Origin: a virus
Lineage: Duplodnaviria; Caudoviricetes
Virus record (IMG/VR): IMGVR_UViG_3300031885_000014
Coordinates: 1 to 60,632 of that record
Length of the DNA: 60,632 bases
Strand: one strand, 5' to 3'
Part shown: piece after piece, positions 524 to 59,325 of the stretch
Numbering within the stretch: position 1 is the stretch's first letter
Layout: every line of letters begins with the position of its first letter
Position numbers and translations under genes: made by a program
The notes under the pieces: generated by a model
The model's input: the letters and a program-made list of their open reading frames with translations, nothing else
The model's database searches: none
What the model was told of the DNA's origin: nothing

Positions 524-1310
524 GTGGCGCGCACTGCATGAGAGCATAGGGCGATCCCGTGGCCTTCGGGGAATGAGTCACCATGACGCCCTACTCTACA
601 CCTGGGGCCTGGCAAGCACCGATAACTGGGGCCTTCTGCGCTGCGATCATGTGAAGGCGCTGGTCTTCCCCTACCGTTCGACCGCAAAGGGCGTCGATGC
701 CGCGGTCGAACGGCTAGTCACCAACGGCAAACTCTGCCGACAGCAACACAACGGTCACGAGTACGTCCACTGGTGCTACTTCGAGGACTGGCAGGATGTG
801 AGGAAGCGGATGGGCAGTCCGATCTTCACCTTTACGTGTCATAACGACGGCCAGATACGAACCGGCGGCGGTTCCGGTAAGGCGGCGGAAGCTACCGGCG
901 GTTCCGCCATACAGTACAGTACAGTAAAAGATAATAACAAGACACCGGCCCCCCCTACCCCCCCAGCGGCGCAGCCACCATCAGACTTCATCAACGCCGT
1001 GATGGCCCAGTGGCCCCTCGGTGGCGGGGCTTTCTATGGGCGCTATCTTCGGCTTGAAGAAGAGTACGGCGCCGACTTCATGTGGGATGTCTGGCTGACA
1101 GCACTTGATAGCGGCAAGCCCGCACCGCCAGCCAACTACCTTGAGGCCATAGCCCGGAACGCCGTCGCCGAAGGCCGTAGGCCCGGCGAACGCAAGGAGG
1201 AAAGAGATGCCGAACCGAGGGACAACAGGCCAACGGAGATCGACGGCCTCCGAGTCATCGGGTGGGTCGCCGGCCTCCCAATTCTCGATGCCCCCGCCAA
1301 AGCCCCATGA
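516..1310 (+). CDS. phage replication initiator / replisome organizer with DnaD-like C-terminus
   Basis: GTG at 516 after GGGAGG. N-terminus MAKWRAL..LLYTWGL..DNWG..VKALVFP resembles phage initiators; low-complexity linker; C-terminal PANYLEAIARN. Confidence 0.65.
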   Translation: MAKWRALHESIGRSRGLRGMSHHDALLYTWGLASTDNWGLLRCDHVKALVFPYRSTAKGVDAAVERLVTNGKLCRQQHNGHEYVHWCYFEDWQDVRKRMGSPIFTFTCHNDGQIRTGGGSGKAAEATGGSAIQYSTVKDNNKTPAPPTPPAAQPPSDFINAVMAQWPLGGGAFYGRYLRLEEEYGADFMWDVWLTALDSGKPAPPANYLEAIARNAVAEGRRPGERKEERDAEPRDNRPTEIDGLRVIGWVAGLPILDAPAKAP

Positions 1311-1314
1311 CGCG

Positions 1315-1743
1315 ATGGCGGTCCTGTACTTCGGCGCGTCCCACGTCATCGGCGGCATCTACCTGCTGCCCGACGGCGAGGAATACTGCTGCGCCGACGG
1401 GTCGCTCTACGGCCAGGATCCGGTCGATGAGTATCACGGCGTCTGGACGTGCTGGCGATGCGGCGGCGTCGGTGTGGTGAAGATGTACCGAGGTCACGGC
1501 TACGGCCTGGTCCAGTGTGGCGAATGCCGGGGCGGGCGAACGAGCGGGGTGATGCCGGAGCTCCGCCCCCCCCACATTCACGACTGGCAACCGTCTGAGG
1601 ACGAGGCGCCGGCGCGGTTCGAGCCACAGCGCTGCGAGTGCGGCGCCCTCTGGCTGAAGAAGCGGCCGAAGGAATGCCCTGAGACGAGCGTAGCTGGCCT
1701 GGTGCCTGTCGGCACCCTGCTGAAAGGAGGCCCCCATGCCTGA
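1315..1743 (+). CDS. hypothetical protein with DnaJ-type CxxCxGxG zinc motifs
   Basis: CWRCGGVG and CGECRGG; start codon uncertain. Confidence 0.55.
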   Translation: MAVLYFGASHVIGGIYLLPDGEEYCCADGSLYGQDPVDEYHGVWTCWRCGGVGVVKMYRGHGYGLVQCGECRGGRTSGVMPELRPPHIHDWQPSEDEAPARFEPQRCECGALWLKKRPKECPETSVAGLVPVGTLLKGGPHA

Positions 1744-2068
1744 CGCGATCGACGAAGCGCAGGCGGCGCTAGACAAATTGCTGCGCGACAAGACGGTGCT
1801 CGATTTCCCAGCCACGATACGTCATCATTCCCCCCTCGCCGCAGCCGCACGGCGCCCCCGATCAGCTTCAATTGTGGTCGTGGAGCGACAGGCTCTTAAG
1901 GCTGTCGCCGACCGCCTCGCGCTGGCGGTGCTGGACGAGTCTCTCCCCCCAAGCCTGCGTGGGATGCTGCCCCAGGTGACGTGCTGGCAGGAGGCCCTGC
2001 GTGCCCGCCTGGAAGGGGGGGCAACAATGGCTAACTGGATTCGGAAGGAGGCCCGCCATGCTGACTAA
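1736..2068 (+). CDS. hypothetical protein
   Basis: AGGAGG RBS; overlaps neighbours in an operon-like chain. Confidence 0.65.
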   Translation: MPDAIDEAQAALDKLLRDKTVLDFPATIRHHSPLAAAARRPRSASIVVVERQALKAVADRLALAVLDESLPPSLRGMLPQVTCWQEALRARLEGGATMANWIRKEARHAD

Positions 2069-50068: not shown

Positions 50069-50926
50069 CTAGAGCCGATCCCCCAGGTTCAATGCCCGCT
50101 GCTGGTCAAGGGCCCGCGTCGCCGCTGTCCAGCCGGCATAATGCGCCGTCATAGTGATCGTCGAATGCCCCATGAGCACCTGAAGGGCCCCCAGGTCGCC
50201 GCCGGCGCTTAGGAAGGCGTTGGCAAACGTGATCCTGAATCGATGACTGCCGACCGGCGCCACCCCGGCGCGATCCCCTAGCGTGCGGAGCATGTCCCTG
50301 ACTAGCACCCGCTTCATGGGTTCGCCGTACTGGGTGAGCCAGAGACAACCCCTGCGGCCGTTCACCTCTTGCCTCAGAGCCTCCAGGACGGTAGGACCTA
50401 GCGCCACCAGCCTCTCCTTTGAACCCTTGCCCCGAATCAATACCGTCCCCTCCTCCCAGTCCACATCGCGGGCCTCCATGCCCAGCATCTCCGAGACCCT
50501 TATTCCTGTGGAGGCGAGCACCAGGACGATGGCATGGTCCCTATCATTGAGACAGGCAGCCAGGAGGAGGCGGAGCTGGTCGATGGTGAACGGCCGCTTG
50601 GGTTGGCACTTCGGGAGCTTGATGCGAATGTCGGCGCTGGGATCATCCTCCCGCCAGCCCTGAGCGCGGCAGAAGGCGAACCAGGATCGCAGGGAGTGAA
50701 GCCGGCTCCGGGCCGTCACCTGGGCGACAGCAGCCAGTTGCTCGGCCAGGTAGGAGGCGACCGCCTCATGGCAGGCGCGGGTAGGGGAGATGTGATGCTT
50801 GAGCGCCCAGGCGGCGAACAGTCGCATGTTGCAGACGCGGAGTTGGACGGTCTCAGGCGAGTAGCCGGTGGTCAGGAGATAGAGTCGGAACGGTCCTTCG
50901 AGTCCGGCCCATCTGTGGGCGGACAC
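50069..50926 (-). CDS. int: tyrosine recombinase / integrase (XerC/D-like)
   Basis: TGIRVSE, GKGSKER, HRFR, LMGH, AHY catalytic residues; AAGGAGG RBS. Confidence 0.92.
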   Translation of the reverse strand: MSAHRWAGLEGPFRLYLLTTGYSPETVQLRVCNMRLFAAWALKHHISPTRACHEAVASYLAEQLAAVAQVTARSRLHSLRSWFAFCRAQGWREDDPSADIRIKLPKCQPKRPFTIDQLRLLLAACLNDRDHAIVLVLASTGIRVSEMLGMEARDVDWEEGTVLIRGKGSKERLVALGPTVLEALRQEVNGRRGCLWLTQYGEPMKRVLVRDMLRTLGDRAGVAPVGSHRFRITFANAFLSAGGDLGALQVLMGHSTITMTAHYAGWTAATRALDQQRALNLGDRL

Positions 50927-56217: not shown

Positions 56218-56831
56218 TGTCTAGACTCCTCGACCTCTTCTGTGGCGCCGGCGGGGCTGCGATGGGCTACCACCGCGCGGGGTTTGAGGTCGTGGGCGTG
56301 GACATCAAGCCCCAGCCGCACTACCCGTTCGAGTTTCACCAGGCCGACGCCATGACCTACCCCCTGGAGGGCTTCGACGCGATCCACGCGAGCCCGCCGT
56401 GCCAGGCATACAGCCAAGCCGCTCTGGGGACTGGCAAGACCTATCCCGACCTCCTGGCCGCTGTCCGCGAACGGCTGGTTATCGCCGGGGCGGCGTGGGT
56501 GATTGAGAATGTGCCCGGTGCTCCAATGCGAGCCGACTTCAGGTTATGTGGCTGCATGTTCGGTCTATCTCTGCGTCGGGAACGATGGTTTGAAACGAGT
56601 TGGCAGCATTTTGCCCTGCGCCAACCGTGCCTGCATACCGGCCCCGTCGTCTCAGTCGTGGGCCACGGAACGCCCACATGGGTCCGAAAGATACTCAGGT
56701 TCAACCCAACGATCCATCACTACCGCGAGGCGATGGGCATCGACTGGATGAACCGTGACGAACTCTCCCAGGCCATCCCGCCCGCCTACACGGAGTACAT
56801 CGGCAGCTGGCTGATGAAGGAGTGGGCATGA
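56214..56831 (+). CDS. DNA cytosine-5 methyltransferase (compact)
   Basis: LLDLFCGAGG, HASPPCQ, IENV, RRER.FE, QAIPPAYT. Confidence 0.9.
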   Translation: MMSRLLDLFCGAGGAAMGYHRAGFEVVGVDIKPQPHYPFEFHQADAMTYPLEGFDAIHASPPCQAYSQAALGTGKTYPDLLAAVRERLVIAGAAWVIENVPGAPMRADFRLCGCMFGLSLRRERWFETSWQHFALRQPCLHTGPVVSVVGHGTPTWVRKILRFNPTIHHYREAMGIDWMNRDELSQAIPPAYTEYIGSWLMKEWA

Positions 56832-57022
56832 TGCTAGTCCCCGAGTTCGTCACCGTCCGGGTGCTCACCGCTTGCGGCTGGCAGACCGTACATGCTGCCC
56901 GGCTGCACCAGACTGTCGAATGGCCAGAGGCGGTGTGGTGGGCGCACCTAACGGCCACATGCCACATGGCTGAGGGGAGAACAGTGGCCGCGTTGGAGAG
57001 GCTGAACGATGGCCCGCCTTGA
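56828..57022 (+). CDS. hypothetical protein
   Basis: AAGGAG RBS; ATGA overlap. Confidence 0.45.
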   Translation: MMLVPEFVTVRVLTACGWQTVHAARLHQTVEWPEAVWWAHLTATCHMAEGRTVAALERLNDGPP

Positions 57023-57281
57023 GATGTTCGTTGAGTTCTACAAAGACAAACCACCACCGAATGCCGAACTGGTGCTGCGGGCGGCTACGAGCGGCCTTCG
57101 GCTTCTCCGGTCGGTTGAGACCGAACTTCGCAGGGGGAAACCCCTCACCCGCGGGTTCGCTGGCAACTGGACATCACCACTAGTTACTCAGGCGCCCTCA
57201 TCGTCTACCGTTCTAAGGAGATCCCGGAGTGGACGAGCTGGACGCCGAAGGTACAGAGGATGGGCAAGGAGTGAGCGCACG

Positions 57282-57380
57282 TCGCCCTTCGCTCGGAGGG
57301 CTGCCGCCATCCGTTAGTGGCCTGTGGTTGGTCACTGTTTACGGAAGGCGGAAACCACCAGCTCTCCGAGCGGTGGGTGA
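57282..57380 (+). ncRNA. structured RNA with nested stems and probable pseudoknot
   Basis: CGCTCGGAGGGCTG (57290) pairs with CAGCTCTCCGAGCG (57359); inner stems; loop GTGGTT (57324) complementary to AACCAC (57353). Confidence 0.55.
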
Positions 57381-57635
57381 AGGTAGGTTGAGGGATAGAA
57401 CGATTAACAAATTACCTCATCCCCTACGACCGGAAGGTGCCCGTCTTAGCACGACTAGGGGGAAAACGCCTGCACCAACGGGTGGGACAGCCGTGGAGAA
57501 TCGGGACTCGGCAACAGGCCCTCACCCGCCGCATCAAGCGAGGGTTCGCCCTTCGCCTCCAGCCCTGGGAAGAAGGCTCGGCCCGATGCGCGGGACGCCG
57601 CGAGACGGTCGGGTGACCCCAGGGTTGGCGGCGGC

Positions 57636-57721
57636 GGGTGAAGGCCGATAGCAGAGCGGCACTGCGCGGGGCTAGAGATCCCGAGGCCCAGGTTCGAATC
57701 CTGGTCGAGACCCACCCGCCA
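57636..57721 (+). tRNA. atypical tRNA-like RNA, anticodon AGA, interrupted and elongated acceptor stem
   Basis: D arm GCAG/CTGC, anticodon arm CGGGG-CTAGAGA-TCCCG, T arm CCAGG-TTCGAAT-CCTGG, ends GCCA. Confidence 0.65.
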
Positions 57722-57727
57722 CTTCAT

Positions 57728-57815
57728 GGGTTCGCTGCGCCGGGTAGCTCAGTGTTAGAGCGCGGTCGCACCGAGGTCGCGGGTTGAAATCCCGCCCTGG
57801 CGCAGCGGCCCACCA
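57728..57815 (+). ncRNA. tRNA-like RNA with 16-bp acceptor stem and truncated anticodon arm
   Basis: TA-GCTC-AGTGTTA-GAGC D arm, CGGT-CGC-ACCG mini arm, GCGGG-TTGAAAT-CCCGC T arm, ends ACCA. Confidence 0.7.
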
Positions 57816-57832
57816 GGAAGAAGGAGGCAGAG

Positions 57833-58087
57833 ATGAAGTGGACAGTTAACGGCTCACTGGCCTTTCCGCCCCCCAAAGATGAAGATGAATACGTCAGTAA
57901 TGCCACGACGCAGCGCACCATTGAAGTCATCCGCGCCGAAGGGCACGCCGCCGGCTACAAGGATGGGTTGCTGGCGATGACTGCCTGGGCGCTGAATCGC
58001 AAGCCACGGCTGACGAAGAGTGACCTGTGGGATGCCCGCGTCGAGATCAACCGCACGGGTTCCCTCCCCGAAGACAAGGAGGCGTGA
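57833..58087 (+). CDS. hypothetical protein
   Basis: AAGGAGG RBS. Confidence 0.65.
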
Positions 58088-59325
58088 TGCGGACCGGGAT
58101 TCCCTATGCCGATGACGTTTGGTCCGTGACCGAGGGCTGTACCAAGATCAGCCGCGGGTGCGCTCACTGCTGGGCCGCCGCGCTCGCCCCCCGCCTGGGC
58201 ATCGACTTCTCGCACGTCACCCTGCACCCCGAGCGGTTAGACGAGCCCCTTCACTGGCGCAGGCCCAGGACGGTGTTCGTCGCATCACGGTCCGACCTGT
58301 TTCACGCGGATGTGCCGGATGAGTTCATTGACAGGGTGTTCACGGTGATGGCGCTGACTCCCCATCACATCTATCTGCTGCTGACGAAGAGGCCGGAGAG
58401 AATGCGGGTCTATCTCATGGACAAGACCGCGTCATCGCCTCCTGTCTTCCCTGATACGGCTAGCGAGGAGGTGCGGCCCATTCCTGGCTACCCTGGCTAC
58501 TTCGCCTCTTCTCACGGCTACATCTACTCGGAGAAGCGCGGTAGCCGTCGTGCCATGCAGCCCGACGTGGCGAAAGATGGGTACGAGCGCGTTCAACTTC
58601 ACCGCGAGGGCAATGGTCGGCGCGGTGATCGGCTTCTTATACACCGTGTGATCTTGGAGAGCTTCGGTGGGGCTGCGCCGAGTCCAGATATACAGACCCG
58701 CCATCTCGACGGGAATCCGCACAATAACCGCCTCAGCAACCTTGCATGGGGCACTCAGGCAGAGAACTGGGCGGACTCGAAACGACACGGCAGATACCGG
58801 CGATATTGGAAACTGGAATCCCAAGAGGTCGATGGCATCCGGCGCCGCTGGTCTGCGGGGGAAACCGCCGCAAGTATCGCACGGGATTTCGGGGTCTCAG
58901 ACACCCAAGTACGCAACATCGGCCGGGGCCTGCAATGGAATGTAAAGCCCATGATAACCTGGCCCCTGAACAACGTGTGGTGCGGCGTCAGCGTCGAGGA
59001 CCAGGCGACCGCCGACGAGCGCATACCGCTGCTCGTCCGCATGAAGGCGGAAGGGGCAGCGGCCCACATCTGGGTATCCTTTGAGCCTCTCCTAGAAAAC
59101 CTCTCTATCAATCACCAACTAGTCCGACAACTTGACTGGGCCGTGATAGGCGGAGAGTCGGGGCCAAAGGCTCGGCGTATGCGAGTCTCCTGGCTCGCCC
59201 AGCTAGCCAGCCAGTGCGCGACGCTCCGTGTCAAATGCTACGTCAAGCAGGCGAGCCACAGATACCCAGGCAGGCAGGGGGATCTAAGTGACGAACTGTG
59301 GGCGAGGAAGGCGGTGCCGTGGTGA
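58087..59325 (+). CDS. DUF5131 (phage Gp37/Gp68) protein with in-frame NUMOD4-HNH-HTH insertion
   Basis: [27 protein letters not shown] ... [29 protein letters not shown]. Insert: [31 protein letters not shown]. Confidence 0.88.

What the first reader, a model, noticed from the sequence alone, without database searches (positions are those of the whole stretch)
57728..57815. tRNA mimic with a 16-bp acceptor stem, no real anticodon loop and encoded CCA
Seen: D and T arms look canonical. The acceptor helix GGGTTCGCTGCGCCGGG / CCTGGCGCAGCGGCCC gives 16 bp with one bulge, followed by A-CCA. The anticodon arm is only 4 bp plus a 3-nt loop, and the T loop is TTGAAAT. Intact pairing argues against random decay. 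Inference: a non-decoding tRNA mimic, such as a decoy for anticodon nucleases or other tRNA-targeting defences, or a ligand for an elbow-binding protein.
Basis: partly seen in the sequence, partly recalled or inferred. Interest (0 to 1): 0.7.

Follow-up and report, generated by a model that had tools for sequence, protein, structure and literature searches.

The report
Anticodon-less tRNA-like RNA inside phage hairpin
A temperate phage carries a tRNA-shaped RNA that has lost its anticodon loop and sits at the tip of a conserved hairpin just upstream of a gene, most likely serving as an RNA-processing signal rather than as a decoder or a proven decoy.

Summary
Window 57728-57815 folds as described: a 16-bp helix with one bulge, D and T arms, a 4-bp/3-nt "anticodon" arm and A-CCA. 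Rfam tRNA scores 45.6 bits with a deletion in the anticodon arm; ARAGORN calls nothing.

Comparison changes the reading in two ways.

1. The outer 9 bp of the helix, the 5' CAU and the 3' ACCA belong to a conserved hairpin (H2). Seven distinct variants in related phage contigs share its base. Their tips differ: a normal tRNA-Ile(UAU), unrelated small hairpins, or this core. H2 closes a structured intergenic module that includes an upstream helix with real covariation.

2. The truncated core is not a one-off decay. A second phage (L121) has the same mini-arm in a cloverleaf. Its acceptor and T stems differ from the window's by 6 compensatory double changes. Sediment contigs also carry the core inside a different long helix.

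Best reading (0.4): a non-decoding tRNA-derived module acting in cis as a tRNA-type processing or stability signal, with an RNase P-like site at U-1/G+1 plus RCCA. Rivals are a trans-acting mimic with Yrn1-type Y-RNA topology, a decaying pseudogene, and an RNase III stalk. There is no expression evidence.

The parts
57279..57383 (+). Long helix LH0, unit 1: block A plus H0 5' strand pairing with H0 3' strand plus X (GCGGTGGGTGAAGG). It starts at the stop codon of the upstream reading frame.
   Evidence: Inverted repeat I3, 22 nt, 82% complementary; MFE fold; one row of alignment A2.
57386..57533 (+). 135-nt insert of unknown nature, followed by X' (CCCTCACCCGCCGC, 57520-57533), which is complementary to X.
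   Evidence: Direct repeats D2 and D3 and inverted repeat I1. No Rfam match.
57543..57644 (+). Long helix LH0, unit 2: block A TCGCCCTTCGC plus H0 (CCAGCCCTGGG / CCCAGGGTTGG) plus X (GCGGCGGGTGAAGG).
   Evidence: Inverted repeat I2, 25 nt, 80%. Covariation over 9 sequences: 92.9% of cells paired versus 82.0 +/- 1.8 in shuffles (0/500), and 9 of 24 pairs changed on both sides. Contig variants C57579T with G57611A keep a pair in its apex.
57646..57707 (+). Element 1: degenerate copy of a phage tRNA with anticodon loop CTAGAGA. The inner acceptor stem is broken (3 of 7 pairs).
   Evidence: RF00005 43.2 bits, model 5-66 only. 93.5% identical over 62 nt to the L005 tRNA, which ARAGORN calls tRNA-Ser(aga) and Rfam scores at 56.3 bits. 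The fold of 57620-57730 is no better than shuffles (z = +1.0).
57713..57727 (+). X' of unit 2 (CACCCGCC) and the linker ending in CAT, the conserved 5' flank of H2.
   Evidence: Repeat D3. CAT is invariant in 7 of 7 H2 variants.
57728..57737 (+). H2 scaffold, 5' strand (GGGTTCGCTG, with one bulged base).
   Evidence: Conserved in 7 distinct variants; all changes keep pairing.
57738..57803 (+). Anticodon-less tRNA-like core: acceptor 57738-57744 / 57796-57802, D arm, mini arm 57763-57773 (4 bp plus CGC loop), variable AGGTC, T arm 57779-57795.
   Evidence: RF00005 45.6 bits. Model R1 95.2 bits. Homolog L121:945-1010 with 6 compensatory pairs.
57803..57811 (+). H2 scaffold, 3' strand (CAGCGGCCC).
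   Evidence: Identical in L003, which was found independently through a protein.
57812..57815 (+). A-CCA tail of H2.
   Evidence: Present in 7 of 7 H2 variants. Two of these are independent of the search probe: L003 and L081. Absent after the core in L121 and in the X2/X4 contigs.
57822..58087 (+). AGGAGG ribosome-binding site (57822-57827) and 84-aa ORF (ATG 57833) with no known family.
   Evidence: In relatives a purine-rich site and a different gene follow H2 within 1-35 nt.

Best explanation
The 88-nt element has two layers. The inner 66 nt (57738-57803) are a tRNA-derived cloverleaf. Its anticodon arm is reduced to a 4-bp stem with a 3-nt loop, so it cannot decode. It belongs to a small family of such anticodon-less tRNA-like RNAs in temperate phages. 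The outer 9 bp, the CAU before them and the ACCA after them are the base of a conserved hairpin, H2. H2 ends a structured intergenic RNA module (block A, long helix LH0, middle region, H2) that runs from the stop codon of one gene to the ribosome-binding site of the next.

Inferred mechanism: the module is transcribed with its neighbours on the + strand and works in cis as a processing and stability signal. H2 presents A(-2) U(-1) | G(+1)-C72 ... A73-C-C-A, which fits the stated preferences of bacterial RNase P. Cleavage there, with trimming back to CCA, would separate the upstream RNA from the downstream message and could release a stable hairpin RNA with tRNA-like ends. The tRNA-shaped tip adds the T-arm/elbow surface that tRNA-processing enzymes use, for which an anticodon loop is dispensable.

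Shown here: the structure, the family, the scaffold and the covariation. Inferred: transcription, the cleavage sites and the enzymes.
For: Structure:
- Searches support the fold.

Scaffold:
- The H2 base is shared by 7 distinct variants with 97.1% of cells paired. CAT and ACCA are invariant. The tips range from 19 to about 95 nt.
- One tip is a normal tRNA-Ile(tat) at 57.3 bits.
- All 7 one-sided changes give G.U, U.G or A-U, which fits a + strand RNA.

Upstream helix LH0:
- 9 of 24 pairs changed on both sides; 23 such cells versus 9.8 +/- 2.5 in shuffles (0/500); slid controls 37-55% paired.

Family of the core:
- L121 has the same mini arm, with 20 of 20 pairs kept and 6 changed on both sides (8 of 500 shuffles reach this; slid controls 40-55% paired).
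- One contig holds 57743-57815 identical, followed by another gene.
- Two contigs hold 57743-57795 with 4 differences and no gap. By my reading of their loose ends, the flanks form 14 consecutive pairs of different sequence.

RNase P determinants:
- U(-1), A(-2) and 3' RCCA pairing with L15, and non-tRNA substrates including 4.5S RNA and phage regulatory RNAs (passages of PMC4919922).
- A tRNA-like Y RNA of M. smegmatis is cut by RNase P and receives CCA (passages of PMC4201824).

Position:
- 18 nt before a start codon in the window. In L121 it lies 8 nt after the integrase stop codon.
Against: - No RNA data: no RNA run holds the stretch. Transcription, ends and cleavage are all unshown.
- H2 shows no double-sided covariation (0 of 15 pairs), and its shuffles are uninformative because the 3' strand was my search probe.
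- The 5' leader is fully paired for 9 bp beyond the tRNA acceptor, which is not how pre-tRNAs usually look. If the T loop were used as the ruler, the cut would fall inside the helix.
- L121 and the X2/X4 copies have no ACCA, so RCCA cannot explain the core family as a whole.
- U(-1) and A73 could simply be one more base pair.
- L081 carries a degraded version of this same core in H2 (R1 17.7 bits). Element 1 of the window is degenerate. Both fit relaxed selection on the tips.
- The family rests on few sequences: 2 full cores plus short contigs.
Confidence: 0.4

Rival explanations
1. Trans-acting tRNA mimic. The processed RNA is a stable small RNA that binds a host or phage factor recognising the tRNA elbow, acceptor or CCA end. 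Candidates are a Ro60/Rsr-type protein, a CCA-end-modifying toxin or a tRNA-modifying enzyme. This is. Its layout (a long helix of the 5' and 3' ends, a D arm, a short hairpin in the anticodon position, a T arm, 88 nt) is that described for Deinococcus Yrn1.
For: - Compensatory maintenance of the cloverleaf after the truncation, and recurrence inside a second long helix.
- Chen et al. 2014 describe Y RNAs of 80-130 nt with a long stem plus a tRNA-like module, and Yrn1 with a hairpin of a 5-bp stem and a 6-nt loop in the anticodon position (passages).
- The best match of the core among 50,697 phage records is an unannotated YrlA-like RNA beside a Ro-like gene in Mycobacterium phages Whirlwind and Krypton555.
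- A single bulged base in the H2 stem is present in 7 of 7 variants.
Against: - No TROVE gene in the window or in 4 related virus records.
- The motifs named for Ro binding in that paper (GNCGAAN0-1G, GGUCCGA) are not evident in the H2 5' strand.
- Rfam YrlA scores only 16.4 bits, E = 1.8.
- The similarity to the Whirlwind RNA lies in generic D and T arms, and the arm order there is permuted.
- H2 tips are freely replaceable in relatives.
- Without an anticodon loop it cannot decoy anticodon nucleases.
Confidence: 0.2
2. Pseudo-tRNA without a function of its own. A phage tRNA gene that sat in the tip of H2 lost part of its anticodon arm and is drifting. Only the hairpin base is under selection.
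For: - Tips of H2 and of the middle region are unrelated among relatives.
- L081 holds a further degraded version of the same core.
- Element 1 is a broken copy of the L005 tRNA.
- A deletion confined to the loop leaves the stem paired, so 'intact pairing' alone proves little.
Against: - The same mini arm in L121, with 6 double compensatory changes and no broken pair, is hard to obtain by drift.
- The core persists with 4 substitutions and no indel in another scaffold.
- By my reasoning, a single contiguous 6-nt deletion from a canonical arm (U33, purine 37) does not give the CGC loop without further change.
Confidence: 0.2
3. RNase III processing stalks. LH0 (24-28 bp) and H2 (16 bp plus inner helices) are double-stranded RNase III sites that cut the polycistronic RNA and release whatever lies in or between them, as the stalks around rRNAs do. 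The tRNA-like tip and ACCA are incidental.
For: - Long, nearly perfect helices with conserved mismatches.
- Real tRNAs lie inside them in L005 and L032.
- RNase III sites between phage genes and after int (T7 R sites, lambda sib) are recalled from memory, not from a call.
Against: It does not explain the invariant CAU and ACCA flanks or G1-C72 to G3-C70, nor the maintenance of the cloverleaf in L121, which has only an 8-bp acceptor helix.
Confidence: 0.12
4. Attachment site: the tRNA-like sequence is an attP copy or scar of a host tRNA gene used by the phage integrase.
For: In L121 the element lies 8 nt after a tyrosine integrase gene. The window encodes a tyrosine integrase.
Against: - In the window the integrase lies at 50135-50587, about 7 kb away.
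- The element is a whole cloverleaf, not a 3' tRNA fragment.
- The 19-mer of the mini arm gave 74 hits in one genome each of 185,579 species, none of them tRNA-like (best identity 48 of 88).
- No 66-nt type was found in 151 genomes of one phylum.
Confidence: 0.03

Closest known systems
Deinococcus radiodurans Yrn1 and bacterial/phage YrlA Y RNAs (Chen et al. 2014, PMC4201824; passages read)
   Same: A non-decoding RNA of 80-130 nt with a long helix formed by the 5' and 3' ends plus a tRNA-like D/T module. Yrn1 has a short hairpin in the anticodon position. M. smegmatis YrlA is cut by RNase P and receives CCA. Such RNAs occur in phages.
   Different: No Ro/TROVE gene nearby and no recognisable Ro-binding motif. 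YrlA has the permuted arm order. Rfam YrlA scores 16.4 bits against a gathering score of 69. The acceptor helix here is continuous with the long stem and ends in ACCA.
Non-tRNA substrates of bacterial RNase P: 4.5S RNA precursor, tmRNA, C4 antisense RNA of phages P1/P7 (review PMC4919922; passages)
   Same: A hairpin or tRNA-like helix with 3' RCCA and U(-1), G(+1). Phage-encoded examples exist.
   Different: Cleavage has not been tested here. The helix is 16 bp before the T stem, against 7 bp in a tRNA. The element sits in a 5' UTR with a variable tip.
tRNA-like processing signals in mRNAs and lncRNAs: mascRNA of MALAT1 and plant mitochondrial t-elements (recalled; the only call is the Rfam mascRNA-menRNA hit at 57658-57711, on element 1, not on this element: 15.9 bits, E = 2.8)
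   Same: A cloverleaf-like element with a reduced anticodon arm, used in cis to recruit RNase P/Z.
   Different: Those systems are eukaryotic or organellar. There is no sequence relationship, and the Rfam hit is far below threshold.
Ordinary phage-encoded tRNAs
   Same: Body closest to tRNA-Ala, Pro and Val. Relatives carry real tRNAs at the same positions.
   Different: There is no anticodon loop, ARAGORN rejects it, the D loop lacks GG and the T loop has G56.
Conserved intergenic stem-loops at mosaic gene boundaries: PeSL of T4-type phages, SAS/ESAS of cluster K mycobacteriophages (recalled, no call)
   Same: Conserved inverted repeats with a variable spacer just upstream of start codons, flanked by variable genes.
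   Different: There is one locus per genome here, the helices are much longer and covary, and the tips carry tRNAs or an HNH gene.

Membership tests
tRNA (RF00005), decoding | Cloverleaf with acceptor, D and T arms | tested here: met
   45.6 bits against a gathering score of 29, model 1-71.
tRNA (RF00005), decoding | 5-bp anticodon stem with a 7-nt loop carrying U33 and an anticodon | tested here: not met
   4-bp stem and 3-nt loop; 11 model positions replaced by 5. ARAGORN makes no call.
tRNA (RF00005), decoding | G18-G19 / U55-C56 elbow pairs | tested here: inconclusive
   D loop AGTGTTA and T loop TTGAAAT. A U.G substitute is possible. L121 has the canonical GG and C56.
Y RNA (YrlA RF02553 / Yrn1 type) | Match to the family model | tested here: not met
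   YrlA 16.4 bits against a gathering score of 69, E = 1.8, spanning two separate elements.
Y RNA (YrlA RF02553 / Yrn1 type) | Ro60/Rsr (TROVE) gene in the same locus or genome | tested here: not met
   0 matches in the window and in 4 of 4 related virus records. The host is unknown.
Y RNA (YrlA RF02553 / Yrn1 type) | Long terminal stem plus tRNA-like module, 80-130 nt | tested here: met
   88 nt, 16-bp terminal helix, D and T arms. Definition taken.
Y RNA (YrlA RF02553 / Yrn1 type) | Binding to Ro60 | not testable with these tools
   Needs immunoprecipitation.
RNase P substrate | U(-1), G(+1)-C72, R73-C-C-A after a helix | tested here: met
   CAU|GGG...CCC-ACCA, invariant in 7 of 7 H2 variants. 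Criteria.
RNase P substrate | Cleavage by RNase P | not testable with these tools
   Needs an in vitro assay or end mapping. No RNA run is listed.
Phage attP in a tRNA gene | Adjacent to the integrase and identical to a host tRNA 3' part | tested here: not met
   The integrase is 7 kb away. No tRNA-like host match among 74 hits.

The most novel reading that the evidence does not exclude
Temperate phages of sediment bacteria encode a previously undescribed class of anticodon-less tRNA-like small RNAs. The class keeps acceptor, D and T arms and has a conserved CGGU-CGC-ACCG mini arm. In the window's lineage it is fused to a long bulged terminal helix ending in CCA, the same topology as the Deinococcus Y RNA Yrn1. 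These RNAs would be released by tRNA-processing enzymes and act in trans on host tRNA-binding machinery or defences. The surrounding hairpin module would be a cassette site where tRNAs, tRNA mimics and homing-endonuclease genes are exchanged.
Probability: 0.2. Interest if true: 0.8.

Novelty: new variant of a known kind. Interest (0 to 1): 0.55.

Why it matters
tRNA-shaped RNAs that do not decode are known from only a few systems: tmRNA, Y RNAs, mascRNA and viral TLS. A phage family that keeps the tRNA body but discards the anticodon loop would add a case, and the data point to what is under selection: the acceptor/T/D surface, not the anticodon. The conserved multi-hairpin module is also of interest in itself. 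It shows real covariation, spans exactly one intergenic space, and carries swappable tips (a tRNA, a tRNA mimic, an HNH gene). That makes it a candidate RNA-processing centre or cassette boundary in mosaic phage genomes. The practical lesson is that the '16-bp acceptor stem with CCA' is a composite of two layers, which only comparison reveals.

Tried and rejected
- blastn of 57600-57830 against 50,697 phage records found no match.
- A pattern joining the D arm to the T loop gave 0 hits in IMG/VR.
- The 15-mer of the H2 5' strand gave 51 IMG/VR stretches, of which 2 are real members (L005, L081).
- The H1 pattern gave 6 stretches, of which only L006 (the L003 record) is real.
- The H2 pattern gave 0 hits in genome contigs.
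- Of the 57 metagenome stretches found with the 19-mer, 10 are family members (L013, L032, L033, L039, L046, L048, L049, L053, L057, L063). The other 47 are chance matches in unrelated sequence and were dropped.
- The consensus scan of 56800-58200 found no sigma-70-like promoter or intrinsic terminator.
- No RNA holder was listed for the stretch.
- RtcB, the CCA-adding enzyme domain and the serine-recombinase domain were not found in the window.
- PHROGs and Pfam gave nothing for the flanking small ORFs.
- Model R1 over the window plus 99 loci (751,985 bases) found no further 66-nt copy. In 151 genomes of one phylum it found only normal 72-76-nt tRNAs, at most 62.7 bits. That sample includes the unpublished genomes G097, G091, G010, G057, G027 and G129, and the negative tally rests partly on them.
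- A group I intron reading (conserved helices, an HNH gene in a loop) was rejected. There is no Rfam intron hit at E <= 10 and no split exon.
- Literature: two searches for anticodon-less or truncated-anticodon phage tRNA-like RNAs and for phage tRNA-like processing signals listed nothing pertinent. The phrases 'lacks an anticodon', 'anticodon-less' and 'truncated anticodon' had 0 occurrences in the listed papers. Supplements were not seen; those of Chen et al. 2014 hold their Y RNA models and lists and could bear on membership.
- The search of earlier findings was not open.

Full report
**Setting.** The window is a complete 60,632-bp virus record (CheckV 100%) with 63.7% G+C. It is a temperate phage with a tyrosine integrase at 50135-50587 on the minus strand. 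The finding lies in a gap of about 550 nt without convincing genes. Upstream is a small reading frame ending at 57274. Downstream is an 84-aa ORF starting at 57833. The wider neighbours are:
- a Gp3-like recombination directionality factor;
- a C5 methylase fragment;
- a DUF5131 gene interrupted by NUMOD4 and HNH_3 domains.

**Observation.**
- The 88-mer folds to -50.6 kcal/mol, z = -3.68, and no shuffle of 200 does as well.
- The textbook cloverleaf stacked on the outer helix costs only 0.3 kcal/mol more.
- Rfam's tRNA model matches 57738-57803 at 45.6 bits across the full model, with 11 anticodon-arm positions replaced by 5.
- ARAGORN finds no tRNA anywhere in the window.
- A second tRNA-like match lies just upstream at 57646-57707 (43.2 bits, model 5-66 only). 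Its inner acceptor stem keeps 3 of 7 pairs, and its region folds no better than shuffles.

**The outer helix is a shared scaffold.**

How the relatives were found:
- The closest relative was found through the RDF protein (L003, 76% identity). It conserves both strands of the outer helix, the CAT before it and the ACCA after it. It has no tRNA-like interior.
- Probing with the 3' strand found L005 in IMG/VR and 10 true members among 57 metagenome stretches.
- Probing with the 5' strand added L081.

What the seven distinct versions of this hairpin (H2) share and where they differ:
- They share the base, with 15 pairs and 97.1% of cells paired. There are five pairs with one-sided changes, all to G.U, U.G or A-U. 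One bulged base is always present.
- Their tips differ. One is a 19-nt mini hairpin (L005). One is a 32-nt hairpin that is identical in four otherwise different contigs (L013, L033, L046, L053). Two are other inserts (L003, L048). One is a degraded relative of the window core (L081). One is a regular tRNA-Ile(tat) set off by an internal loop (L032; 57.3 bits).
- H2 is always followed within 1-35 nt by a purine-rich ribosome-binding site and a gene, and that gene differs between contigs.

H2 shows no double-sided covariation. Its 3' strand was my probe, so the shuffle control is uninformative. The independent confirmations of ACCA are L003 and L081.

**The module upstream.** From the stop codon of the upstream gene onward, relatives share a block A (TCGCCCYTCGC) and a helix H0 whose sequence changes while its pairing is kept. 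They also share a G-rich strand X that pairs with block A. Together these form one long helix, LH0, of 24-28 bp.
- Nine sequences were used. L033 was left out of the count because its apex is 400 nt long.
- 92.9% of cells pair, against 82.0 +/- 1.8 in shuffles (0 of 500).
- 9 of 24 pairs change on both sides. There are 23 such cells against 9.8 +/- 2.5 in shuffles (0 of 500). Slid controls reach 37-55% paired.
- Two G.U pairs are conserved, which places the structure on the + strand RNA.

X can also pair with a C-rich strand X' downstream. This alternative pairing is the 'extended acceptor' of element 1, and in the window the two pairings exclude each other. The window holds two such units (57279-57533 and 57543-57723). 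In L033 the apex of LH0 holds a 149-aa HNH endonuclease ORF. In L005 the middle region holds a tRNA that ARAGORN calls Ser(aga) (56.3 bits). Window element 1 is 93.5% identical to it over 62 nt, with one compensatory pair in the anticodon stem but a broken acceptor stem.

**The truncated core is a family.**
- A scan of IMG/VR for the 19-mer spanning the mini arm found L121. It is a 66-nt cloverleaf at 50.1 bits with the same 11-to-5 deletion. It lies 8 nt after the stop codon of a tyrosine integrase, inside a provirus record that continues with HTH, ParB-like, DnaA_N and terminase genes.
- Against the window core, the D arm, mini arm and variable loop are identical. The mini arm is identical by design of the search. 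The acceptor stem has 4 double changes and the T stem has 2, and all 20 pairs are kept. 8 of 500 shuffles reach this, and slid controls reach 40-55% paired.
- L121 has canonical GG in its D loop and C56 in its T loop, an 8-bp acceptor helix and no CCA.
- Laying contigs of four sediment runs on the window adds two pieces of evidence. One contig is identical over 57743-57815 and then continues into a different gene. Two contigs match 57743-57795 with 4 differences and no gap. Their flanks are unlike the window's and, by my reading of the printed loose ends, pair with each other for 14 consecutive positions, with no ACCA behind. I could not fetch those contigs or see which 4 letters differ.
- No further 66-nt copy turned up in the window plus 99 loci, in 74 genome hits of the 19-mer, or in 151 genomes of one phylum (this sample includes six unpublished genomes).
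- The nearest ordinary tRNAs are Ala, Pro and Val. Neither numbering of the helix gives a G3:U70 pair.

**What it most likely does.** The data separate two questions.

What the element is: a non-decoding, tRNA-derived cloverleaf nested in a conserved 5'-UTR hairpin. I hold this with high confidence.

What it does can only be inferred. I favour a cis-acting processing or stability signal, for three reasons:
- The module fills exactly one intergenic space.
- Its tips are exchangeable, while the helix base and its flanks A(-2) U(-1) | G(+1)...A73-CCA are invariant.
- Those flanks are the stated sequence preferences of bacterial RNase P, which also cuts hairpin-like and phage RNAs (passages). It also cuts a tRNA-like Y RNA that then receives CCA (passages).

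The real tRNAs of this phage group lack an encoded CCA, so the conserved ACCA on H2 stands out.

Against this reading:
- There is no expression evidence.
- The leader is fully paired.
- Copies of the core outside H2 have no ACCA.
- Decay of tips occurs in some lineages (L081; element 1).

**Comparison with known systems.**
- The layout matches what Chen et al. 2014 describe for Deinococcus Yrn1: a terminal long helix, a D arm, a short hairpin in the anticodon position and a T arm.
- The best hit among phage genomes is an unannotated YrlA-like RNA beside a Ro-like gene in Mycobacterium phages Whirlwind and Krypton555.
- Membership in the Y RNA family fails the tests I could run. There is no TROVE gene in the window or in 4 related records. 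Rfam YrlA scores 16.4 bits. No Ro-binding motif is evident.
- It is not a decoding tRNA, not an attP site, and no intron model matches.
- Two literature searches found no description of anticodon-less phage tRNA-like RNAs. Supplements were closed.

**Verdict.**
- Observation: confirmed.
- Novelty: a new variant of known kinds (tRNA-like processing signals and Y-RNA-like mimics).
- Interest: moderate to fairly high. The reasons are the family evidence for the truncated core and the covarying hairpin module with swappable tips.

Noticed in passing
window 58027-59325: The DUF5131 (Gp37/Gp68) gene matches its Pfam model in two stretches. NUMOD4 (residues 150-192) and HNH_3 (205-247) domains lie between them, in frame. 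This is either a homing-endonuclease or intein-like insertion, or a fusion.
   Followed up: no
window 57009-57274: The conserved C-terminal motif EIPEWTSWTPKV, shared with a 109-aa protein of L003 and L048, lies in a different frame from the ATG-started ORF 57009-57317. This could be a frameshift, a broken gene or a different N terminus.
   Followed up: partly
L033 229-678 (-): A 149-aa HNH endonuclease ORF (motif HHRNGNPLDNTVENL) fills the apex of the long helix LH0. Its stop codon lies in strand X.
   Followed up: partly
L002 3466-3538: A 73-nt element matches only the two ends of the tmRNA model (25 bits, below the gathering score). It has an acceptor-like helix, a T arm and an ACC tail. 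It lies downstream of a weak homolog (39% over 45 aa) of the window's 84-aa ORF.
   Followed up: no
window 57386-57519: A 135-nt insert between X and X' of unit 1 contains the only A+T-rich stretch of the region (around 57400-57425). It has no Rfam match and no consensus promoter.
   Followed up: no
L198 (G001) 943-2179: The provirus record holding L121 has a second tyrosine integrase (943-1929, minus strand) next to a tRNA-Pro(cgg) (2104-2179). This suggests two elements integrated in tandem, or host flank included in the record.
   Followed up: partly
L216 (Mycobacterium phage Whirlwind 42077-42456): A YrlA-like RNA (38.3 bits, E = 3.7e-6 in the local search) lies unannotated between gene 55 (RNA-binding, vWA-like) and gene 56.
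   Followed up: partly
L013, L033, L046, L053: Four contigs share a 66-nt H2 that is identical to the letter, although their upstream middle regions and downstream genes differ. This points to recombination at, or strong constraint on, this hairpin.
   Followed up: partly
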